From Candidatus Nomurabacteria bacterium (GTDB taxonomy: Bacteria > Patescibacteriota > Patescibacteriia > UBA1558 > GWA2-36-10): a stretch of 64,000 nucleotides of DNA. Positions 14,227 through 57,848 of the stretch are shown here, piece after piece; within the stretch, counting starts at the first letter, position 1, and every line of letters starts with the position of its first letter. The position numbers and the translations under genes are program-made. A model generated the notes under the pieces. The model was not told the DNA's origin. It worked only from the letters and a program-made list of their open reading frames with translations, and searched no databases. Location of the stretch: NCBI GenBank assembly GCA_020632415.1, contig JACKFO010000002.1, forward strand, positions 228,605 to 292,604, in the 5' to 3' direction.

Positions 14227-14256
14227 AATTGAGTATAATAACCCTTACACTCAATT
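14227..14256. other. Candidate Xer recombination (dif-like) site: 11-8-11 imperfect palindrome
   Basis: AATTGAGTATA-ATAACCCT-TACACTCAATT; arms match 10/11 as inverted repeats; directly upstream of the only tyrosine recombinase in the window. Confidence 0.4.
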
Positions 14257-14310: not shown

Positions 14311-15255
14311 ATGGCAAAATACACCCTTCCTCTCTTGGATGAGTTTTTAGAGAATATTCAGTCCAATAATTACTCCCCGGAGACAGTTTATAATTATGAA
14401 AGAGATTTAAATATTTTTGAAATATTTTTAAACGAGGATCTTCAGATTCCTTTTAAGGATTTAAGTAAAAGGACAATTATTAAATTCAAGGCCTACCTCT
14501 CCTCTACTTCTCGTCTAACACCAGCTCATGAGCTAGGTGAAAAACAATTAGTTAGTTTTAGTATTAATAGAATTTTATCAGCCTTGAGATCTTATTTAAA
14601 ATTTTTAGGAGAAATAGATTATAAAACTCCGGTGACTGCTGACGCTGTCAAACTTTTGAAAACTGAAAAAAAACATGCTCAAGTAGCAGAGATGAATGAA
14701 TTGATTGCAATTATTGAGGCGCCAAATAAGTTTGAAAAAGAAATAAATATTAAGCTACGTAATCGAGCAATGCTGGAAACCCTTTTTGCTACTGGCATGC
14801 GTATTTCAGAATTATTATCTTTGAAGCGCGAGCAATTAGATAACACTGGAAGAATTTATATTATGGGAAAAGGTAAAAAACAACGCTTTGTTTATTTGAC
14901 ACCCCGAGCTATTGAGCATTTACGTCTTTATCTAAAAACTAGAACTGACGAGTCTATGTATATGTTTATTCCTTATCGTGGTCGTAATAATCAAAGCAAA
15001 CACAAGAAAATTTCTAATAATTATCTTCAGTATAAATTAAAAAGATATCGTGAGTTATTAGGAATTAATATTCCTATTTCTCCTCATTCGCTTCGTCATG
15101 GCTTTGCGACCTATTTAGCTGAAAATGGGGCTAATCCGGCGGCAATTCAAATTCTTTTAGGACATGAGTCTTTGGATACTACGACACGCTATGTGCATGC
15201 TTCTGATAAATACGCTGAAAAAATGCATACTCAATTTCATCCTCTAAAAAAATAA
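14311..15255 (+). CDS. Tyrosine site-specific recombinase, XerC/XerD family (single Xer, XerS/XerH-like arrangement)
   Basis: 314 aa; C-terminal catalytic signature HSLRHGFATYLAENGANPAAIQILLGHESLDTTTRYVH (R..HxxR..Y). Confidence 0.85.
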   Translation: MAKYTLPLLDEFLENIQSNNYSPETVYNYERDLNIFEIFLNEDLQIPFKDLSKRTIIKFKAYLSSTSRLTPAHELGEKQLVSFSINRILSALRSYLKFLGEIDYKTPVTADAVKLLKTEKKHAQVAEMNELIAIIEAPNKFEKEINIKLRNRAMLETLFATGMRISELLSLKREQLDNTGRIYIMGKGKKQRFVYLTPRAIEHLRLYLKTRTDESMYMFIPYRGRNNQSKHKKISNNYLQYKLKRYRELLGINIPISPHSLRHGFATYLAENGANPAAIQILLGHESLDTTTRYVHASDKYAEKMHTQFHPLKK

Positions 15256-15278
15256 AGTCCCGAGCAACAGCACGGGAC
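15246..15278 (-). terminator. Rho-independent terminator (minus strand) for the small ORF
   Basis: Minus-strand reading: AGTCCCG-tgctgttgct-CGGGACT then TTTATTTTTTT. Confidence 0.6.
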
Positions 15279-15311
15279 TCGATGGTGTGAATGTCTAGCC
15301 AGACATCTTGC

Positions 15312-15458
15312 TCAGTGTGGCAGGAAACTGGCTACAAAGAGGCCGGCGAAAATGACCAGGATCAGTAGAACCAGTGTAGCTGGCCACTCAAAGCGTCTGA
15401 TTCGTTGGTCTTGATAGCCATTCAAGGCATTTTGCTTTTGTTGTTTGCGACTACTCAT
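15312..15458 (-). CDS. Small membrane protein (48 aa), in a GC-rich islet with own promoter, SD and terminator
   Basis: MSSRKQQKQNALNGYQDQRIRRFEWPATLVLLILVIFAGLFVASFLPH; strong SD AGGAGGAAA 6 nt upstream of ATG; basic N-terminus plus one TM helix; too short for the ORF track. Confidence 0.4.
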   Translation of the reverse strand: MSSRKQQKQNALNGYQDQRIRRFEWPATLVLLILVIFAGLFVASFLPH

Positions 15459-15500
15459 TGTCAGTTTCCTCCTCTAGTGGGTGAAGATCAGAATGGATTT

Positions 15501-15529
15501 ATTTTAAGCTTTTGTTGCTATTTTGTCAA
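15501..15529 (-). promoter_or_regulatory. Sigma-70-type promoter (minus strand) for the small ORF: TTGACA-16-TTAAAAT
   Basis: Minus-strand reading: attTTGACAaaatagcaacaaaagcTTAAAATaaatcc. Confidence 0.4.
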
Positions 15530-15533
15530 AATT

Positions 15534-17405
15534 TTATTTGGTAGTTAATAAAATTTTACCAGCCCTCACTTGCTCACTTATTTCTGAGTCAAGATTTGAC
15601 CAGCTAATTAGATTTTCTAAAAATATTTTTTTCTCATCAGATTTCATTAGTGATAACTGAACTTTTTCAGAGCTAATTGGAAATAAGTATATTTCTAATT
15701 GGCCTTCTCTTAGATGAATGCCTATAGACAGCTCTTGCTGTGTGTCTTGAGAAAAATATTGATCAAAAACAAAATTTCCTAGAGAATAAAATATTGGCTT
15801 ATTATTATAGATTTCTAGACCCTGAACAACGTGAGGATGGTGTCCGATCAGGATGTCCGCGCCAGCGTCAATGACTTGGTGTGCTAGATTTTTTTGTAAG
15901 TTATTTATCTGATGTTGATATTCGGTTCCCCAATGTATTTGAACGATTACTAGATCGTGTTCATTTTTAGCTTTTTCTATTTTTTTCAGAGCCTGTTCAA
16001 GATCAAATTGTCCATAAACCATACTAAATCCAAGTAAAGCAACTTTTTTGTCAGCAATATTTATTGTTGTAAGACTGCATTGATCAACGGCTCTATCAGT
16101 ACAACCAGAAAAATCTAAGTCAAGTTTTTTAAGATTCTGAGTAGTCTCTTCTAGTCCTCTAGCTCCTTGATCTCCGAGATGATTATTGGCTAGATTAAAA
16201 AAATTGAAAAAATATTTATTTTTTAATTCTGATAAATATTTTGGGTCAGCAGCAAAATCAATTGTAAGTTCCGGTGGATAATGATCGCCGTTGTTAGTCA
16301 AGGCGCTTTCTAGGTTAGCACTCACTAAGTCATTACCCATAAAAAACCGGTTTTCTCCACCAGCTAAATCATCAAAAACATAGCCAAGCCCATTGTTTTC
16401 AAGTTTATTTTTTACATCTCGATCTAGCATCAAGTCACCAAAAAAAAGCAAATTCATCCCATTTTTTTGAAGATTTTCTCCTTTGGAAAAATAATAAAAT
16501 AAATGACTAGTCCCCGCTTCTTCAGGCGTGTCTAATAAATCGCTAGAATTTGTATGAAAAACTAAGTCAGATTTTTTTGCTTCTATTTTTTCTAAGTAAC
16601 TTAAAATAGTATAAATTGAAGCTGGAGAATCTATTTCTAGCTTGTTTACTCGCTCTAGATCAAAATCTTCTATGACACTTTGGCTTAGCTGATCATGAAA
16701 ATCTGCAACGGATAAGGGTTGATAATGTGAAAAATCAACGCTAGCTAAAATCAAAGTTTTTTCCGGGTCAGTATTGTTTTTTAGATAGTCTACCAAGAGA
16801 TCCAAATCTTTTTTTGGTGTATTAGTTTTTAAGATAATTGGTAAGATTTTAGCTTCTGTTAAGCTGTTTTTAATGAAAGGTACCAAACCAGAAATAGAAT
16901 GTTCATTTAAAAATGGCCCTTCTTCAATGCTGATCTCTTTGTTTTGAGCAAGTTGTTTTCCAAGTTCTAAGTCAGGCAATAATTCTCCGTAAGGAGTTTG
17001 CCATTTATTTTGCGAAATAATGATGTTATTTGTCCCCGTCTGATAATGATTTGGTCCGATCAAAATTACTGTCTGATAATCTTTTTTGGCTAAACCCATA
17101 AACCAAGCGGCCACTTTGTCTTTGACGATTAAATGATGCGGAATAATTCCGCCATAAATTTTTTCATTTGCTATTTTTATGCTACTAGTGCCCGCAGTGT
17201 AAGCTTCATCATAAAATGATCTGTTCATATAATAAGAATCGTGACTCTTGAGTATTAATTCTTCGTTTTTTTTCTGCGGATTGGATATTTTTAGCGAGCC
17301 TAAAAGACTATTATTATTGTAATTTAAATAAACATAAATTAGTCCCACTTGTAAGATAAGCAGGACTAAAGTTAGAGTTATTATTTTATGATATTTTTTA
17401 AGCAT
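15534..17405 (-). CDS. Fusion protein: N-terminal MEMO1/AmmeMemoRadiSam-protein-B-like domain plus C-terminal CapA/PGA_cap metallophosphatase-like domain; N-terminal TM anchor
   Basis: 623 aa; Memo motifs GGIIPHHLI, IGPNHY, NEHSISG, SVDFSHY; CapA motifs LVIVQIHWGTEYQHQ, GADILIGHHPHVVQGLEIY, FYSLGNFVFDQ. Confidence 0.7.
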   Translation of the reverse strand: MLKKYHKIITLTLVLLILQVGLIYVYLNYNNNSLLGSLKISNPQKKNEELILKSHDSYYMNRSFYDEAYTAGTSSIKIANEKIYGGIIPHHLIVKDKVAAWFMGLAKKDYQTVILIGPNHYQTGTNNIIISQNKWQTPYGELLPDLELGKQLAQNKEISIEEGPFLNEHSISGLVPFIKNSLTEAKILPIILKTNTPKKDLDLLVDYLKNNTDPEKTLILASVDFSHYQPLSVADFHDQLSQSVIEDFDLERVNKLEIDSPASIYTILSYLEKIEAKKSDLVFHTNSSDLLDTPEEAGTSHLFYYFSKGENLQKNGMNLLFFGDLMLDRDVKNKLENNGLGYVFDDLAGGENRFFMGNDLVSANLESALTNNGDHYPPELTIDFAADPKYLSELKNKYFFNFFNLANNHLGDQGARGLEETTQNLKKLDLDFSGCTDRAVDQCSLTTINIADKKVALLGFSMVYGQFDLEQALKKIEKAKNEHDLVIVQIHWGTEYQHQINNLQKNLAHQVIDAGADILIGHHPHVVQGLEIYNNKPIFYSLGNFVFDQYFSQDTQQELSIGIHLREGQLEIYLFPISSEKVQLSLMKSDEKKIFLENLISWSNLDSEISEQVRAGKILLTTK

Positions 17406-17406
17406 T

Positions 17407-19215
17407 TTAGTGTAAAGCGCCGCCCCACTCTGTCAGGACAAATCCTTCTCGGATTGGAGTTTTAAATGTTTGAGCTTGGACATTTATTTTCTGATCCAAA
17501 GCTCTGTAGTCCATGAAGACGCGAATAATTGTATCTGGCTTTGGACTGACTTCTAGCGGAGCTAGTTGATCAAACTGTTCTTGAGGAACAAAAGTAATAA
17601 AGTAGTAAGGTTTTTCTTGCATTTTTGGTGCCCAGAAATCAATAAATTCATTGTACTCTTGAGCTATTAAACCTTGTTGAGCTAATTTTTCAGTTAAAAA
17701 TTCAATAATATTTTCTCTAGCCACAACAAAACCTTTGTCTGGCATTTGATAATTTAATCCTAAGCCTTCCCAAAATAAATAAGGATAGTTTTTCTGATCA
17801 TCATAGTTATACAAATTTCCTTCAGGATCAGCTTTGACTAGCCAGCCATTTTTGTATTCCGGCTCAGTAATTGTCAGACCATTATTTGGAAAAACTTTGA
17901 CTAAAATGTCAGTAGTTTTTTCAGGATAAAGGTAGATAACCGGCTTGCCCATTTCAACTGGTGGTACATATTTGGCGTTTTTAAACATGATATACTTTCC
18001 AAAAGGATCTTGCCAAAATAAAACTGGATGATCAGCCAAAAACTCTGAAAAACTTGGCTTATCTTGTCCTTCTGGCGAGTAAATAGTGTCGTACATTGAT
18101 TGAAGTAGAGATTTTTGATCGTTAGCTTGTTCTTTTAAATTAATATCAGCTAATTCATAAATAGCATCGCCAGCAAAAGTTTCCCCGGTCTTTTTTATTT
18201 GAGAGTTATTGCTAATAAAATTAGCATAGTCATAACAGCCGACGTCTGGTGAAAAATAAAATGTTTTATTAAACAGATATTCGTTGTTATTATCAGAGTT
18301 GTCGTCAAATGAAATGTTTAGTTTGTATGGTTTTAAGCCAAAATAAGAACTAGGATCTTGGCTTTCTTCGCCGACGAAGTTTAAGTCTAGGATGTAGTTG
18401 ATCGCTGAGTGGTCATTTTGTTCAGCAATATAGCAGTTGTTAACGTTGTCTTTGTAAATAGTAACTTCATCGTTGCTTAAAATTTCTTGAGCGTTATAAT
18501 CACTTAGTATTTTTTTTGGATCGGTTTCGGCTTTGGTAAATTTATTGTTTGTATTTGGGATATTAACAATCTCTGGATTATCTTCTAGATTCTTAATTGT
18601 TATTAAATTATTAAATTTAAATAAACTTCCATAGCTAAAATAAACAAGACTATTTTCATCATTGAGACTCGATTCGTTTTTGATGATTATCAGCTCTCCA
18701 TCATTATTAATAATTCTGCTGATACCATTTGATAAACAAGGGCCTTCACAAGGTAAAGTGGCCAAATACAAATCTTTTCCTTGGTAAGGGCCTTCGGCTA
18801 TTGTTCCGGCGTTATAAAATGAAACACGATTATAGACAAACTCATATAAAGAGCCGTAGTTATCAATAAAATTTTGATTATTGAGTAAGGACTCATTTAA
18901 ATTACTAGTTTTTTCACCAAAAATTTCATTAGCGTTGCTAATTTTGGCCAACCAATTTTTCCAATCAACTCTAATTTCATTTGTTGCTAATTCTTCTTCC
19001 TCTTCTGAACTATTTGTGCCATTAATAATGTTTTGATTTATAATATTTATGTTTTGTTGATTTTCTAAATTAATTTCTGAATTTTTTTTATTAAATAAAA
19101 AATAGACAGTAAGTAAATTACTGATTATTAATAAAATTACTAAAAGCGAGAGTGTGAGTTTAAAGTGATTTTTTTCTGTCTTTATTTCCACACTCTTTTC
19201 TTCTTGAAAATCCAT
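17407..19215 (-). CDS. Hypothetical membrane-anchored secreted protein, Asn/Ser-rich
   Basis: 602 aa; one N-terminal TM helix then low-complexity N-rich region; 1-nt spacing to the downstream Memo-CapA gene (operon). Confidence 0.5.
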   Translation of the reverse strand: MDFQEEKSVEIKTEKNHFKLTLSLLVILLIISNLLTVYFLFNKKNSEINLENQQNINIINQNIINGTNSSEEEEELATNEIRVDWKNWLAKISNANEIFGEKTSNLNESLLNNQNFIDNYGSLYEFVYNRVSFYNAGTIAEGPYQGKDLYLATLPCEGPCLSNGISRIINNDGELIIIKNESSLNDENSLVYFSYGSLFKFNNLITIKNLEDNPEIVNIPNTNNKFTKAETDPKKILSDYNAQEILSNDEVTIYKDNVNNCYIAEQNDHSAINYILDLNFVGEESQDPSSYFGLKPYKLNISFDDNSDNNNEYLFNKTFYFSPDVGCYDYANFISNNSQIKKTGETFAGDAIYELADINLKEQANDQKSLLQSMYDTIYSPEGQDKPSFSEFLADHPVLFWQDPFGKYIMFKNAKYVPPVEMGKPVIYLYPEKTTDILVKVFPNNGLTITEPEYKNGWLVKADPEGNLYNYDDQKNYPYLFWEGLGLNYQMPDKGFVVARENIIEFLTEKLAQQGLIAQEYNEFIDFWAPKMQEKPYYFITFVPQEQFDQLAPLEVSPKPDTIIRVFMDYRALDQKINVQAQTFKTPIREGFVLTEWGGALH

Positions 19216-38953: not shown

Positions 38954-39439
38954 TTATTCAAGTTCATTCATTAACTCTATTTTTTGCTCTTTTACTTTTT
39001 GCCTTTGATCAAAAATGAAGCTCGCTTTTAGCTTTTTGTTGTCTAAAAAAAGCGGTAGCCAGTATTGATCATCATCCCACATTTGCTGATAAGGGATGTC
39101 TTGTAAGTCAAACCACTGCGGTTTCATTTCTTCTGTTTCAACTAACTCTCCAGACCAAGCTATTACTTTAAAAACATGAATAACCAAAGTTTTAATTAAG
39201 CTGGTATCGGGAAAATTAAAATGAATAATTGCTCTTTTTTCTAATTTCTCAGCTTTCAAGCCACTTTCTTCGTTTAATTCTCTGCCTGCTGCTTGCTCGA
39301 TTGTTTCCTCTGGCTCAAGCTTTCCACCAAAGCCATTGTAAAAACCTTGACCAAAGCCTCTTTTTTTAAAAGCAAGTAGTATTTTATCATCTTTAATCAA
39401 AAAAGCTAAAGTACGAAAATCCTCTCTCTTAGGCTCCAT
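38954..39439 (-). CDS. NUDIX hydrolase
   Basis: Nudix box GGKLEPEETIEQAAGRELNEESGL; start placed at MEPKRED (ORF-track start 39484 lies inside secA); still 11-nt overlap with secA stop. Confidence 0.7.
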   Translation of the reverse strand: MEPKREDFRTLAFLIKDDKILLAFKKRGFGQGFYNGFGGKLEPEETIEQAAGRELNEESGLKAEKLEKRAIIHFNFPDTSLIKTLVIHVFKVIAWSGELVETEEMKPQWFDLQDIPYQQMWDDDQYWLPLFLDNKKLKASFIFDQRQKVKEQKIELMNELE

Positions 39440-42182
39440 GGCATTTTTTATATTTTTTACCACTGCCGCAAGGACAAAGATCATTACGCCCCACCTTTTC
39501 TCCTTCTTCGTTTTTTGGTTTAGAAGCTAAGATTTGAGAATTTTGTTCACGTTCCTCTACTTGTTTTTGAAATGGAGAAAATCCGGCTTTTTGTTCGCTA
39601 AAATTTCTTTGAGCTTGTTGGGCTGGGTTGCTAGCTAATTTTTTGGCAACGCCAACTTTAAAAATCGAATAGACTATTTGTTTACGAATTGAGGCCAATA
39701 GATTATTAAACAAAGTAAAAGCTTCTCGTTTATATTCAACCAAAGGATCTCTTTGCCCATAGCCCTGTAGACCAATTCCTGTTCTTAATTTGTCCATGGC
39801 TGTCAAATGTTCAACCCAAAGAGTGTCAATGCTTCGTAAAACAATTCCTTTTTCGATTAATTGCATTGGTTTAAAACCACTTTCCGGCATTTCAATCGAC
39901 TGATTGATATTTTCAGTTTGAGCTAAATATTTTTCTTTAGCCAAAACAATAATATGTTGGATTAGTTCTGAACGAGTTTCATGAGAACTATCTTTTTTGA
40001 GTTTATCTAATAATTCCTTAATTTTTTCAATTTCAGTATTGTCTAAAGGAAAAATAGATTTTATAGTTTCGATAATTTCTTTGGGATCAAAATCTCCAAG
40101 TTCAGATTTTGCTAAAGTATGAAAAGAAACCACTTCTTCTATTTCTTTGTTAATTTGTTCTAAAACAAAATCTTGAGAACTACTTTCTTTTGTACTTTGA
40201 GCATTTTCAAATAACTTCAAAAAGTTTTGACGCATCTTATAAACAACTTGACGATGTTTGTTGATAATATCATCGTATTCGACCAAGTGTTTTCTGATGT
40301 CAAAATTATGACCCTCTACTTTTCTTTGGGCAGATTCAATTGAACGAGAAATTATTTTATTTTCAATCGCCGTTTCTTCATCAAGCCCTAAAGTATTCAT
40401 CACCGACTTGATTCTCTCCGAACCAAAAATACGCATCAAATCATCGTCTAAAGAAATGAAGAATTGTGAAGATCCGACGTCTCCTTGACGTCCGGCTCGA
40501 CCTCTGAGCTGATTATCAATACGACGAGATTCATGTCTTTCACTACCCAAAACATGTAAACCACCCAAAGACTTTACTTCTTCATGTTTAGCTTTATCAA
40601 ATGGTACACCGCCCAAAATAATATCCACACCACGACCAGCCATGTTGGTTGCAACAGTAATTGCTGATTTTTTACCGGCTTGAGCTAAAATTTCCGCTTC
40701 TTTGGCGTGATTTTTAGCATTTAATAAATTAAAAGGTAAACCTTCTTTTTCTAAAAATTGAGCTAACAATTCATTTTTTTCAATTGAAGCAGTACCAATC
40801 AAAACCGGCTGACCAATCTGGTGACGATAAGCTACTTCTTTGGCAATGGCCTTGAATTTGCCGCGTTCAGATTTAAAAATTTGATCTTTCAAATCTTGAC
40901 GAGAAAATGGTTTGTTAGTTGGAATGACTGTGACATCTAAACTGTAAATCTGAGCCATTTCTTCGGCCTCGGTAGCCGCTGTTCCGGTCATACCAGAAAG
41001 CTTTTCATACATTCTGAAATAATTTTGAAAAGTAATTGTGGCCAAAGTCATACTTTCTCTTTGTACTTGTACACCTTCTTTAGCTTCAATTGCTTGATGT
41101 AAACCTTCGGAATATCTGCGACCCTCCATCATTCTTCCGGTAAATTCATCGATAATCACAATTTCTCCATCACGGACAATATAGTCCTTGTCTTTGTGAT
41201 ACATTGCTTTAGCTCGAAGAGCTTGCTCTAGATGATGAATTGTTACTAAGCCGTGAGTTTCATAAATATTATCTACGCCTAATAATTTTTCTACTTTACG
41301 CACACCATCTTCAGTCAATGTTGCAGTACGCATTTTTTCATCAATATTGTAGTCAGTGTTTTCGACTAATTGGTTTACTAATTGAGAAAACTGTTGATAC
41401 TGTGAGGCTGATTCTTCGGCTGGTGCAGAAATAATCAAGGGAGTTCTTGCTTCATCAATCAAAATGCTATCCACCTCATCAACGATGGCAAAAGTTAGAT
41501 CGCGTTGAACCTGATCTTTTTTATCTTGCGCCATATTATCACGCAAATAGTCAAAACCAAATTCATTGTTAGTTCCGTAAGTAATGTCCGCCTGATAAGC
41601 TTCACTACGACTTACTGGTTTTAGATAGTCCATGACCACTTTGACTGCTTGATCTCTCACTTGGTCATCGTCTTCGGAAATATGATTTGAGTCATAAATA
41701 AAAGAAGTATTATGTTGAATAATTCCAATACTCAAACCCAAAAAATCATAAATTTGCCCCATCCAAGTCGCGTCACGTTTGGCCAAATAATCATTAACCG
41801 TTACCACGTGGACACCTTTGCCGCTTAAAGCGTTTAAGTAAATCGCCAAAGTTGAAGTTAAGGTTTTACCTTCACCGGTTTTCATTTCGGCAATTTGGCC
41901 CTGATGCAAAACAATTCCTCCTAGTAACTGCACGTCATAATGATTTTGATTTAAAGTTCTTTGCGCGGCAAGTTTAACCAAAGCAAAAGCAGGAACCAAT
42001 AAATCATTTAGATCAGTTCCGTTTTGTGCTTGCTGTTTTAATTCTAAGGATTTATTTTTTAGTTCCTGATCAGAAAGCTTTTCCCATTCAGCTTCTTGTT
42101 TTTTTATTGCTTCTATTTGAGGCTTTAAACTATCTAAGAAACGTTGATTGGCATCTCCGAATATTTTTTGTAACCAAGACAT
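39429..42182 (-). CDS. secA: Preprotein translocase subunit SecA
   Basis: 917 aa; DEAD-like motor motifs; C-terminal Zn finger CPCGSGKKYKKCHG. Confidence 0.95.
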   Translation of the reverse strand: MSWLQKIFGDANQRFLDSLKPQIEAIKKQEAEWEKLSDQELKNKSLELKQQAQNGTDLNDLLVPAFALVKLAAQRTLNQNHYDVQLLGGIVLHQGQIAEMKTGEGKTLTSTLAIYLNALSGKGVHVVTVNDYLAKRDATWMGQIYDFLGLSIGIIQHNTSFIYDSNHISEDDDQVRDQAVKVVMDYLKPVSRSEAYQADITYGTNNEFGFDYLRDNMAQDKKDQVQRDLTFAIVDEVDSILIDEARTPLIISAPAEESASQYQQFSQLVNQLVENTDYNIDEKMRTATLTEDGVRKVEKLLGVDNIYETHGLVTIHHLEQALRAKAMYHKDKDYIVRDGEIVIIDEFTGRMMEGRRYSEGLHQAIEAKEGVQVQRESMTLATITFQNYFRMYEKLSGMTGTAATEAEEMAQIYSLDVTVIPTNKPFSRQDLKDQIFKSERGKFKAIAKEVAYRHQIGQPVLIGTASIEKNELLAQFLEKEGLPFNLLNAKNHAKEAEILAQAGKKSAITVATNMAGRGVDIILGGVPFDKAKHEEVKSLGGLHVLGSERHESRRIDNQLRGRAGRQGDVGSSQFFISLDDDLMRIFGSERIKSVMNTLGLDEETAIENKIISRSIESAQRKVEGHNFDIRKHLVEYDDIINKHRQVVYKMRQNFLKLFENAQSTKESSSQDFVLEQINKEIEEVVSFHTLAKSELGDFDPKEIIETIKSIFPLDNTEIEKIKELLDKLKKDSSHETRSELIQHIIVLAKEKYLAQTENINQSIEMPESGFKPMQLIEKGIVLRSIDTLWVEHLTAMDKLRTGIGLQGYGQRDPLVEYKREAFTLFNNLLASIRKQIVYSIFKVGVAKKLASNPAQQAQRNFSEQKAGFSPFQKQVEEREQNSQILASKPKNEEGEKVGRNDLCPCGSGKKYKKCHGA

Positions 42183-53615: not shown

Positions 53616-54509
53616 TTATGAATTTTTGTTCCACCAAACCAAAAGTGGTGAGGCAATGAAAATCGAAGAATAAGTACCAACAATCACGCCTAAAATCAAA
53701 GCCAAAACGAAATATTGAATGCTCTGACCACCAAAAATATAGATTGCTAGCAAGACCAAAAGCGTAGTTAAGGAAGTATTAATCGAGCGAATAATAGTTT
53801 GATTAACACTAATATTTACAATTTCTGTAAAGCTTTGGTTATGAATTTTAAATAGATTTTCTCGAACTCGATCAAAAGTAACGATCGTATCATGAACAGA
53901 AAAGCCCAAAATCGTCAACAAAGCAGTTACAAATAAAGTGTCAATTTCCACTCCTAAGAAATAACCCAGGATGGCAAACACGCCGGTAACGATTAAAATG
54001 TCATGCACTAAAGCAGCGATTGCAGCCAAACCATATTTCCAAGAAGCAACTGGTTTAGAGACCTTTCTAAAGGCATAAGCAATATAAGCAACAATGAAAA
54101 TCAAAACAATAATAATTGCCTCAATGGCTTTACTCTTTAATTCTTGACCAATAGTTGGACCAACAGATTCAAATCTTTGTTCTTCCACTAAACCAGAGTC
54201 GGGAGCGCTAGATTTTAGCTGATTAAGAACGACTTGATGTTTATCTTCATCGACATTTTCAAAACGTAAGATAAAAATGTTATCACCACTTGGTTGAACT
54301 TTGACATTGTTTAAATCTATCTGCGCCAAACTCTCCTCTATTTGAGTAATTTCTGGACGATTGTTTTCATAAGATATCTCTAACAAACTACCACCGGTAA
54401 AATCAATTCCTAACTTCAAACCCCAAATTACTAGAGCAAGAATACTGATGGCCATTAGGAATCCAGAAATTGAAAACCAAATTTTTTTTGAATCAATAAT
54501 ATTATACAT
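53616..54509 (-). CDS. secF: Protein-export membrane protein SecF
   Basis: 297 aa; SecF N-terminus KKIWFSISGFLMAISI..GIDFTGG; six TM segments. Confidence 0.85.
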   Translation of the reverse strand: MYNIIDSKKIWFSISGFLMAISILALVIWGLKLGIDFTGGSLLEISYENNRPEITQIEESLAQIDLNNVKVQPSGDNIFILRFENVDEDKHQVVLNQLKSSAPDSGLVEEQRFESVGPTIGQELKSKAIEAIIIVLIFIVAYIAYAFRKVSKPVASWKYGLAAIAALVHDILIVTGVFAILGYFLGVEIDTLFVTALLTILGFSVHDTIVTFDRVRENLFKIHNQSFTEIVNISVNQTIIRSINTSLTTLLVLLAIYIFGGQSIQYFVLALILGVIVGTYSSIFIASPLLVWWNKNS

Positions 54510-57773: not shown

Positions 57774-57848
57774 TCGGGGATCGTCTAATTGGTAGGACGA
57801 CTGGTTCTGGTCCAGTTAATCGGGGTTCAAATCCCTGTCCCCGAGCCA
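57774..57848 (+). tRNA. tRNA-Gln (anticodon CUG)
   Basis: 75 nt cloverleaf folded by hand: acceptor TCGGGGA/TCCCCGA (U1:A72), D-arm GTCT/GGAC, anticodon arm ACTGG-TTCTGGT-CCAGT, T-arm CGGGG-TTCAAAT-CCCTG, G73, encoded CCA. Confidence 0.8.

What the first reader, a model, noticed from the sequence alone, without database searches (positions are those of the whole stretch)
15246..15533. GC-rich islet carrying a complete small-gene unit (promoter, strong SD, 48-aa membrane ORF, terminator) convergent with the Xer gene
The 280-nt intergenic block is conspicuously G+C-rich, about 50% by eye against about 30% in the flanks. On the minus strand it contains TTGACA-16-TTAAAAT, then AGGAGGAAA-N6-ATG. 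An ORF follows encoding MSSRKQQKQNALNGYQDQRIRRFEWPATLVLLILVIFAGLFVASFLPH, with a basic N-terminus and a single TM helix. A clean hairpin plus T-run terminator ends the unit. This is one of very few strong SDs in the window. The architecture resembles type I toxin or other small membrane-protein modules, or a recently acquired insert. It may alternatively be a structured RNA.
Basis: seen in the sequence. Interest (0 to 1): 0.55.

Follow-up and report, generated by a model that had tools for sequence, protein, structure and literature searches.

The report
Orphan GC-rich small membrane-protein gene
The GC-rich patch is most likely a real, self-contained gene for a 48-residue single-pass membrane protein; it belongs to a fast-changing set of tiny membrane-protein genes that sit at this one spot, next to the chromosome-resolving recombinase gene, in a small group of ultra-small (Patescibacteria) bacteria, and its function is unknown.

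Summary
On the minus strand, 15246-15533 carries TTGACA-17-TAAAAT, AGGAGG 9 nt before an ATG, a 48-codon ORF and a hairpin plus T-run. GC is 0.44 over the stated span and 0.49 in the transcribed core, against 0.33 for the window.

It is not a known RNA. Rfam has no match, and the fold is no better than shuffles.

The best reading is a genuine small-protein gene. The sister species (L002) has a 63-aa homologue in the same slot. Five further relatives carry promoter, SD, single-pass membrane ORF(s) and terminator there. All of these ORFs are GC3-rich (0.48-0.65, against 0.25-0.36 for xer).

The peptides match no family in four libraries. Gene callers skipped most of them.

A recent insert is not supported, because the unit predates a species split and has no flanking repeats.

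A type I toxin is not supported. No opposite-strand promoter was found in four lineages, the N-terminal tail is a long basic 27 residues, and the SD is not sequestered.

More distant relatives hold structured non-coding RNAs in the same slot.

The window also spans the replication terminus, with a dif-like site directly upstream of xer.

The biochemical function is still only inferred.

The parts
15524..15529 (-). -35 hexamer TTGACA of the unit's promoter. It starts 5 nt after the stop codon of the upstream Memo-PGA_cap gene.
   Evidence: 11/12 with the -10. A TTGAC(A/T/G) hexamer occurs at the equivalent position in L002, L175, L176, L178, L179 and L183.
15501..15506 (-). -10 hexamer TAAAAT, 17-nt spacer. 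The transcription start is inferred at about 15494.
   Evidence: Alignment of promoters and 5' UTRs.
15459..15494 (-). 5' UTR (inferred) with the SD core AGGAGG at 15473-15468 and a GATCTT motif also seen in the L002 and L175 units (GATCAT in L178).
15312..15458 (-). 48-codon ORF plus stop: MSSRKQQKQNALNGYQDQRIRRFEWPATLVLLILVIFAGLFVASFLPH. The N-terminal 27 residues are polar and basic (net +4). The predicted membrane helix is 28-46 (Kyte-Doolittle 2.87). Only two residues follow the helix.
   Evidence: Homologue in L002. The identical ORF occurs in a second sample (L173).
15289..15307 (-). Small hairpin in the 3' UTR (AUGUCU-GGCU-AGACAU).
   Evidence: Present in both the MFE and centroid structures.
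15246..15279 (-). Intrinsic terminator: the 10-bp hairpin at 15279-15256, then TTTATTTTTTT. The T-run overlaps the last two Lys codons and the stop codon of xer on the other strand.
   Evidence: I21. Units in the relatives end the same way against the xer stop.
14311..15255 (+). Convergent neighbour: Xer-type tyrosine recombinase, 314 aa.
15534..17405 (-). Upstream neighbour on the same strand: Memo plus PGA_cap (CapA-like) fusion protein, 623 aa. No terminator separates it from the small gene, so read-through is possible.
14228..14255 (+). Context rather than part of the unit: the dif-like site ATTGAGTATAA-TAACCC-TTACACTCAAT. It abuts the -35 of the xer promoter and marks the replication terminus.
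   Evidence: GC skew and gene orientation.

Best explanation
The islet is a real monocistronic gene for a 48-residue small membrane protein.

How it most likely works:
- It is transcribed from its own sigma-70-type promoter. Read-through from the Memo-CapA gene probably adds to this, because no terminator separates the two.
- It is translated from one of the very few Shine-Dalgarno sites in this genome.
- Transcription stops at a hairpin and T-run that abut the xer stop codon, which shields xer from convergent transcription.
- The product is predicted to be tail-anchored. About 27 basic, polar residues face the cytoplasm (positive-inside rule), one helix (28-46) spans the membrane, and two residues lie outside.
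- A helix this close to the C-terminus leaves the ribosome only at termination, so insertion must be post-translational. SRP-dependent insertion of the E. coli small protein YohP is a precedent (abstract of PMC7549839, listed).
- I infer that it acts inside or at the inner face of the membrane as an abundant accessory or modulatory subunit, not as a poison.

Family context: it belongs to a lineage-restricted, very fast-evolving set of small single-pass membrane-protein genes. These occupy one fixed slot downstream of xer, beside the replication terminus, in a Nomurabacteria-like clade of Patescibacteria. Their GC-rich, SD-led make-up persists across species, which points to selection rather than recent import.

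Shown: the anatomy, the conservation of the unit, the composition, and the absence of known RNA or protein family matches. Inferred: expression, topology, insertion route and role.
For: - Anatomy.
- Sister species: L002 (Xer 87% and Memo-CapA 67% identical) has, in the same slot, a promoter, an SD, a 63-aa ORF with a basic N-terminus and a C-terminal helix, and a terminator. Similarity of the two peptides is z 5.7, with 0 of 500 segment-preserving shuffles reaching it.
- Codon pattern between the two: differences by codon position are 27/19/31, and 5 of 13 identical residues use different codons. This is the pattern expected for coding sequence.
- Further relatives: L175, L176, L178, L179 and L183 (Xer 84-86%) have, at the same place, TTGAC(A/T)-type promoters (two reach the scan's 9/12 cut-off or lie near it; L178's -10 is weak), an SD 6-9 nt before the ATG, one or two small ORFs and a terminator. 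Every ORF but L176's has a strong hydrophobic helix (KD 2.3-3.1). GC3 of the intact ORFs is 0.48-0.65 against 0.25-0.36 in xer (L176's truncated ORF: 0.37).
- Shared unit: the distance from -35 to ATG is 71 nt in the window, L175 and L178, and the 5' UTR shares a GATC(T/A)T motif with L002, L175 and L178. This argues for one orthologous transcription unit.
- The identical ORF occurs in a second sequencing run (L173).
- Not RNA-like: Rfam gives nothing. Fold z is -1.3 to -1.4 for the window and +0.9 to +1.2 for L002.
- No opposite-strand promoter-like site in four lineages.
- Gene callers missed the ORFs in L175, L176, L179 and L183. This explains the empty protein searches.
Against: - There are no expression or translation data.
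- Only one sequence-level homologue was found among about 15 billion predicted proteins.
- Similarity to the other slot ORFs is at most marginal (p 0.04-0.06 to L175A, L179A and L183; none to L175B or L178B). 'One family' therefore rests largely on position, promoter, UTR and architecture.
- L176/L177 keep the promoter, SD and terminator but have a 34-aa ORF with no membrane helix. So the protein can be lost while the unit persists.
- The other ORF-bearing units fold better than shuffles (z -2.8 to -4.3), which leaves room for an RNA-level role.
- The reason for the persistent GC-richness is unexplained.
- The promoter match alone is not beyond chance.
Confidence: 0.6

Rival explanations
1. 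Type I toxin-like module. The peptide is a membrane-damaging toxin, held in check by an antisense RNA such as xer read-through transcripts or an undetected sRNA, or by mRNA folding.
For: - It is a small hydrophobic single-helix peptide under 60 aa, with a narrow, patchy distribution and fast turnover.
- On the xer strand the hairpin has no following T-run. xer transcripts could therefore read through antisense to the ORF.
- Related units are moderately structured (z -2.8 to -4.3).
Against: - No promoter-like site was found on the opposite strand within the unit in the window, L002, L175 or L178.
- A near-consensus promoter and a strong, essentially free SD would give constitutive toxin synthesis.
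- The window mRNA is not significantly folded.
- The topology is atypical: a 27-residue basic N-terminal tail and a helix at the C-terminal end. Type I toxins usually have only a few residues either side of the helix (PMC12648545).
- PADLOC and Pfam give no match.
Confidence: 0.13
2. The functional product is the RNA, either a small regulatory RNA or a dual-function RNA. The ORF is then incidental, or only one of two functions. More distant relatives hold non-coding RNAs in the same slot.
For: - The whole transcript, UTRs included, is GC-enriched, as RNA genes are in AT-rich genomes.
- L004/L185 and L039/L045 carry promoter-plus-terminator units at the same slot that are strongly structured (z -3.9 to -8.1). 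At least the L004 unit has no ATG.
- L176/L177 keep the unit with a truncated ORF that lacks a helix.
Against: - The window and L002 transcripts fold no better than shuffles.
- No Rfam hit.
- No nucleotide similarity to the RNA units.
- An SD plus ATG plus membrane helix recurs in six of seven lineages of the subclade. In a genome that almost never uses an SD, this is hard to explain without translation.
Confidence: 0.15
3. A recently acquired foreign insert from a GC-richer donor that has not yet drifted to the host composition.
For: Codon usage is strongly atypical: CAI-like index 0.42 against 0.68 +/- 0.03, and GC3 0.49 against 0.25. The SD is also unlike host genes. In L045 the same slot has taken up an extra GC-rich segment of about 800 bp.
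Against: - The unit is present and homologous at the same position in a sister species with substantial divergence, so it predates that split.
- Comparable GC-rich units exist in five further relatives.
- The window and L002 DNA have diverged almost beyond detection (p 0.02), yet both remain GC-rich. That is the opposite of what drift towards host composition would give.
- There are no flanking direct repeats or mobility genes.
- No donor homologue was found in any database.
Confidence: 0.05

Closest known systems
Bacterial small membrane proteins (for example YohP, AcrZ, MgtS, KdpF, CydX; review PMC12648545; YohP insertion PMC7549839)
   Same: About 50 codons or fewer, one membrane helix, an own ribosome-binding site, often missed by annotation, narrow phylogenetic range. 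The helix is too close to the C-terminus for co-translational targeting.
   Different: No sequence relationship to any of them. It has a long basic cytoplasmic N-tail with the helix at the extreme C-terminus. Its GC3-rich codon usage is anomalous in a 33% GC genome. It sits at a fixed position next to xer and the terminus, and the coding sequence turns over quickly. No target complex is known.
Type I toxin-antitoxin toxins (Hok, TisB, Fst, BsrG, AapA1 and others)
   Same: Small hydrophobic single-helix peptide, a stand-alone unit with its own promoter and terminator, poor conservation.
   Different: No antisense RNA promoter was found. The SD is not sequestered. The N-terminal extension is long and the topology reversed. 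The promoter and SD are strong and apparently unregulated (criteria from PMC12648545).
Eukaryotic-style tail-anchored regulators such as phospholamban, sarcolipin and RAMP4 (resemblance from my own knowledge, by architecture only)
   Same: A basic cytoplasmic N-terminal segment followed by a C-terminal membrane helix with almost nothing beyond it. The size is about 50 residues.
   Different: No homology. The RAMP4 Pfam match was to the L178 95-aa ORF only, at E 0.069 and below the cut-off. This is a bacterial protein with no known partner.
SecE, single-helix type (resemblance from my own knowledge)
   Same: About 50-60 aa, a cytoplasmic N-terminus, a W-P dipeptide before a C-terminal membrane helix.
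   Different: No Pfam or NCBIfam SecE hit even at E <= 1. It is not next to nusG or rplK. Here the WP runs directly into the helix. It is far too poorly conserved for an essential translocon subunit.

Membership tests
Type I toxin-antitoxin system (toxin gene) | Small (<60 aa) hydrophobic peptide with one transmembrane helix | tested here: met
   48 aa. The best 19-residue Kyte-Doolittle window scores 2.87, at residues 28-46.
Type I toxin-antitoxin system (toxin gene) | An antisense (or nearby divergent) RNA antitoxin with its own promoter, overlapping the toxin mRNA | tested here: not met
   No promoter-like site at 9/12 or better on the opposite strand inside the unit in the window, L002, L175 or L178. 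This is a consensus scan only. xer read-through could still supply antisense RNA.
Type I toxin-antitoxin system (toxin gene) | Toxin mRNA folded so that the SD is sequestered or translation is repressed | tested here: not met
   Window transcript z is -1.3 to -1.4. The SD takes part only in a weak 5-bp helix in the MFE structure.
Type I toxin-antitoxin system (toxin gene) | Only short extensions either side of the helix (the usual case; the Hok family is an exception) | tested here: not met
   The N-terminal extension is 27 polar, basic residues. Criterion from PMC12648545.
Type I toxin-antitoxin system (toxin gene) | Growth arrest or membrane depolarisation on expression | not testable with these tools
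   Needs an experiment.
Bacterial small membrane proteins (a functional class, not a homology family) | Short ORF with a ribosome-binding site and a predicted single membrane helix | tested here: met
   AGGAGG lies 9 nt before the ATG. Membrane helix.
Bacterial small membrane proteins (a functional class, not a homology family) | The ORF is kept open in related genomes while the nucleotides diverge | tested here: met
   L002 homologue (z 5.7), with a coding-type substitution pattern. Positional counterparts occur in L175, L178, L179 and L183. The exception is L176/L177, where the ORF is truncated.
Bacterial small membrane proteins (a functional class, not a homology family) | Evidence of translation and membrane localisation | not testable with these tools
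   No Ribo-seq, proteome or localisation data were available.
Any curated protein family (Pfam, NCBIfam, PHROGs, PADLOC) | Score at or above the family cut-off | tested here: not met
   The window peptide's best hit is Ribosomal_L37e at E 0.037 and 14.5 bits, against a cut-off of 27.6. The eight related peptides also gave only sub-threshold hits.
Known non-coding RNA families (Rfam 15), including tmRNA and tRNA | Covariance-model match at the gathering score | tested here: not met
   The only window hit is tRNA-Gln at 57774. The best hit in the islet is the Leu leader at 23.9 bits against 50, and it matches only the terminator hairpin.
Recently acquired genomic islet or mobile insert | Atypical composition | tested here: met
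Recently acquired genomic islet or mobile insert | Absent from the same site in close relatives; flanked by repeats or mobility functions acting on it | tested here: not met
   Present in the same slot in L002 and, as related units, in five more lineages. No flanking direct repeats. The dif-like site lies on the far side of xer.
SecE (single-helix form) | Match to the SecE profile, and the secE-nusG gene neighbourhood | tested here: not met
   No SecE hit at E <= 1. The neighbours are xer and the Memo-CapA gene.

The most novel reading that the evidence does not exclude
The slot between the 3' end of xer and the next gene, about 1 kb from a dif-like site at the replication terminus, may work as a cradle for small genes. 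The proposal is as follows. An ancestral, strongly promoted and terminated GC-rich transcription unit was a structured non-coding RNA; more distant relatives (L004/L185, L039/L045) still hold such RNAs in the slot. In the window's subclade that unit was converted into, or replaced by, mRNAs for hypervariable single-pass micro-proteins. The window's 48-aa protein would then be a young, possibly de novo gene, or its transcript a dual-function RNA. On this reading, the GC-rich, stop-poor sequence is a legacy of the RNA gene.
Probability: 0.15. Interest if true: 0.7.

Novelty: new member of a known kind. Interest (0 to 1): 0.4.

Why it matters
Patescibacteria have tiny genomes (the longest contig with this xer is 842 kb), and much of their membrane biology is unknown. 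This looks like a strongly signalled small membrane protein that is invisible to annotation: gene callers skipped it in most relatives, and no database family matches it. It is kept at a fixed chromosomal position while its sequence turns over quickly.

It gives a concrete case for two open questions. One is how many real micro-proteins are missed in metagenome-assembled genomes. The other is how small genes arise and are replaced. The persistent GC3-rich, SD-led make-up, in a genome that otherwise uses neither, is an unexplained signal. It could be used to find more such genes.

As a by-product, the terminus and a dif-like site directly upstream of a single xer gene were located. This mirrors the streptococcal XerS/difSL module.

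Tried and rejected
- Rfam at the gathering and E-value thresholds on the window, the islet and 14 related loci: nothing relevant. ARAGORN found only tRNA-Gln.
- Protein searches with the peptide alone, with the exhaustive representative library and with the two-sequence profile returned only the peptide itself, the L002 protein and a spurious leucine-rich-repeat protein, P0002, whose repeats contain 'FEWPSTVDVI'.
- An HMM of the two peptides against all small ORFs of 171 loci found no further members.
- Pfam, NCBIfam, PADLOC and PHROGs with nine slot peptides gave only sub-threshold hits to hydrophobic stretches.
- Descent of the islet from the structured RNAs in the same slot of L004, L039 and L045: MAFFT, nhmmer and shuffled Smith-Waterman comparisons show no similarity beyond the promoter and the T-run. 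This remains speculation.
- Xer-mediated insertion at dif (an IMEX- or pdif-like module): rejected. The dif-like site is upstream of xer, about 1 kb away, and no dif-like half-sites or repeats flank the islet.
- A uniform 'B-type' family covering the window, L002, L175B, L178B and L176: not supported statistically. Only window-L002 and L175B-L176 are significant.
- Other SD-led, GC-rich small membrane ORFs elsewhere in the window: none.
- The metagenome scan with the Memo-CapA protein added almost no close relatives. The productive route was Xer homologues followed by look-ups of the contigs that encode them.
Full report
**1. What is there**

The window is a contig of a Patescibacteria bacterium. 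An identical Xer protein is named 'Candidatus Nomurabacteria bacterium' by NCBI. The contig is Logan SRR12358676_36145. Mean GC of the window is 0.336.

The gap between the xer gene (14311-15255, +) and a Memo/PGA_cap fusion gene (15534-17405, -) is 278 nt. At GC 0.45 it is the most GC-rich intergenic gap in the 64 kb.

On the minus strand it contains:
- TTGACA (15529-15524), a 17-nt spacer and TAAAAT (15506-15501);
- GAGGAGGAAA, with the AGGAGG core at 15473-15468;
- ATG at 15458 and a 48-codon ORF ending at 15312;
- a small hairpin at about 15306-15291;
- a 10-bp hairpin (15279-15256) followed by TTTATTTTTTT.

That T-run lies over the last two Lys codons and the stop codon of xer. Over its exact coordinates GC is 0.438, and in the transcribed core it is 0.486.

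**2. Is it more than chance?**

The promoter match alone is not. Only three sites at 11/12 or better occur in the window, and block shuffles give 4.9.

The SD is exceptional. Of 48 ORFs examined, 43 have at most a 3-nt match to the anti-SD complement, and only three have 5 nt or more.

The codon usage is far outside the genome's range:
- GC3 is 0.49 against 0.252 +/- 0.029 for 50 long ORFs, and only 0.1% of 1712 in-frame 49-codon windows reach it.
- A CAI-like index is 0.42 against 0.68 +/- 0.03.
- CTG and CTC together make up 5% of the window's Leu codons but 5 of the 7 Leu codons here.

**3. RNA or protein?**

Rfam gives nothing at the gathering threshold. In a relaxed search of the islet, the only hit was a Leu-leader match that is just the terminator hairpin. 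ARAGORN finds no tmRNA. The region folds no better than dinucleotide shuffles on either strand (z -1.27 and -1.36; transcript only, -1.39).

The peptide has a polar, basic N-terminal 27 residues (net +4). It has a strong hydrophobic helix at 28-46 (Kyte-Doolittle 2.87) and two residues after it. By the positive-inside rule it is N-in and tail-anchored.

**4. Relatives**

Protein-database searches found only the peptide itself and one 63-aa protein. That protein lies in the same slot of the sister species. There, L002 and 11 other contigs show Xer 87% and Memo-CapA 67% identical to the window's, and the ORF has its own promoter-like site, SD and terminator.

The two peptides are significantly similar (score 53 against 24 +/- 5 in segment-preserving shuffles). 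Their codon alignment shows differences of 27/19/31 at positions 1/2/3. Five of 13 conserved residues use different codons. L002's transcript also lacks significant structure (z +0.9 to +1.2).

Small ORFs are often not called, so I fetched contigs through Xer homologues. In five further lineages (Xer 84-86%) the slot just past the xer stop holds the same kind of unit:
- a terminator for the upstream gene;
- a TTGAC(A/T)-type promoter (L178's -10 is weak);
- an SD 6-9 nt before an ATG;
- one or two small ORFs;
- a hairpin plus T-run abutting xer.

The ORFs are L175 (53 and 45 aa), L178 (90 and 95 aa), L179 (45 aa), L183 (93 aa) and L176/L177 (34 aa). All but the last have a strong single helix and a net-positive N-side. 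GC3 of those with a helix is 0.48-0.65, while xer in the same loci has 0.25-0.36.

The distance from -35 to ATG is 71 nt in the window, L175 and L178. The 5' UTR shares a GATC(T/A)T motif with L002, L175 and L178, which argues for one orthologous transcription unit.

At the sequence level only subsets are demonstrably homologous:
- window with L002;
- L175A, L178A and L179A with one another (z 9-12);
- L175B with L176.

The window peptide is only marginally similar to the 'A' group (p about 0.05). Gene callers had skipped the ORFs in four of these lineages. An identical copy of the window ORF occurs in another run (L173).

**5. What this excludes**

*Recent insert.* The unit predates the split between the window and L002 lineages. 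The GC-rich make-up persists although the DNA has diverged almost beyond recognition (p 0.02). There are no flanking repeats.

*Type I toxin.* No promoter-like site lies on the opposite strand within the unit in four lineages. The SD is essentially free. The promoter and SD look constitutive and strong. The architecture, a long basic N-tail with the helix at the very C-terminus, is unlike the usual type I toxin (PMC12648545). One caveat remains: on the xer strand the hairpin lacks a T-run, so xer read-through could give antisense RNA. This reading therefore keeps some probability.

*Known families.* None of nine slot peptides reaches any cut-off in Pfam, NCBIfam, PADLOC or PHROGs.

**6. What remains odd**

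More distant relatives (Xer 78-81%) have structured non-coding RNAs at the same slot instead, again with a consensus-like promoter and a terminator:
- One family is in L004 and L185. It has z -6.3 to -8.1 and -4.8, there is no ATG in the L004 transcript, and the 3' hairpins are conserved.
- Another family is in L039 and L045, with z about -4.

Neither matches Rfam. I found no sequence similarity between these RNAs and the ORF-bearing units.

L176/L177 keep the unit but have lost the helix. The other ORF-bearing units are moderately structured (z -2.8 to -4.3).

The slot is thus a place where small, GC-rich, strongly signalled genes turn over. The idea that the micro-protein genes descend from an RNA gene, or also act as RNAs, is not excluded. 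It is only weakly supported.

**7. Context**

GC skew changes from about +0.13 to about -0.13 across the window, and gene orientation converges at 15.3 kb. Directly upstream of xer lies an imperfect palindrome, ATTGAGTATAA-TAACCC-TTACACTCAAT (14228-14255). It abuts the -35 of the xer promoter at 14256. It is conserved in all five relatives examined, with one or two variable positions, and occurs once in the window. This looks like a dif site in a dif-xer module, as described for XerS/difSL (PMC1914069). The islet therefore sits about 1 kb from the likely terminus, but on the other side of xer from the dif-like site.

**8. Verdict**

The finding is a real and correctly described unit. Its most likely nature is a genuine gene for a tail-anchored 48-aa membrane protein. 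It belongs to a new, lineage-restricted, fast-evolving group with no homologues elsewhere. The function is inferred to be an accessory or modulatory membrane role.

It is a new member of a known kind (bacterial small membrane proteins). Two features are unexplained: the persistent GC3-rich, SD-led composition, and the turnover of the locus between RNA and protein genes. Interest is moderate.

Noticed in passing
window 14228-14255 (+), with the xer promoter -35 at 14256: A dif-like imperfect palindrome, ATTGAGTATAA-TAACCC-TTACACTCAAT, lies immediately upstream of the single xer gene. It is conserved in L002, L004, L039 and L045 (with one or two base changes in the last three) and matches exactly in L173 and L174. 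This resembles the streptococcal difSL-xerS module (PMC1914069). The literature search returned no paper linking Xer/dif to Patescibacteria among those listed.
   Followed up: partly
window 1-64000, switch around 14-32 kb: GC skew goes from about +0.13 to about -0.13, and gene orientation converges at 15.3 kb. The window therefore appears to span the replication terminus.
   Followed up: partly
L004:5905-6140 (+) and L185:3222-3452 (-): An unidentified, strongly structured RNA of about 230 nt, with a consensus-like promoter and a terminator, sits in the same xer-adjacent slot. MFE is -104 kcal/mol with z -6 to -8 in L004. The L004 transcript has no ATG, the two copies are homologous, and there is no Rfam match.
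   Followed up: partly
L039:4958-5190 (+) and L045:4975-5217 (+): A second, different structured RNA family of about 230 nt (z about -4) lies in the same slot in two other relatives. It has no Rfam match.
   Followed up: partly
L045:5228-6018: An extra GC-rich segment of about 800 bp lies between the slot RNA and xer. It is absent from L039 and appears to carry a minus-strand ORF of roughly 140 codons that looks hydrophobic (read by eye, not run through an ORF or hydropathy tool). It is bounded by GCCAAAATTTA and GCCAATTA.
   Followed up: no
L176:3446-3565 and L177 (same sequence, two samples): The slot unit keeps its promoter, SD, ATG and terminator, but the ORF is only 34 aa and has no membrane helix. 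Its C-terminal 'AWQRCLFF' resembles 'PWLQRCSKLL' of L175B. It may be a decaying gene or an RNA-level function.
   Followed up: partly
window, all ORF starts: The genome almost never uses Shine-Dalgarno sequences. 43 of 48 ORFs have a match of 3 nt or less. The exceptions are the small ORF, 53616-54509 (-) and 38954-39484 (-).
   Followed up: partly
window 15534-19215 (-): The Memo-PGA_cap fusion gene and the adjacent 602-aa gene with no family match are present next to the slot in the window, and L002 has the same arrangement (L004 at least has the Memo-PGA_cap gene there). They are absent in L175, L176, L178, L179, L183, L185 and L187, where the slot adjoins the M23 peptidase gene directly. 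This is an indel of about 3.7 kb beside the terminus.
   Followed up: no
L187:2940-3680: In this relative (Xer 81%) the slot holds a promoter-terminator unit and also, by eye, what looks like a tRNA gene (possibly tRNA-Trp) on the xer strand. I did not check this with ARAGORN.
   Followed up: no
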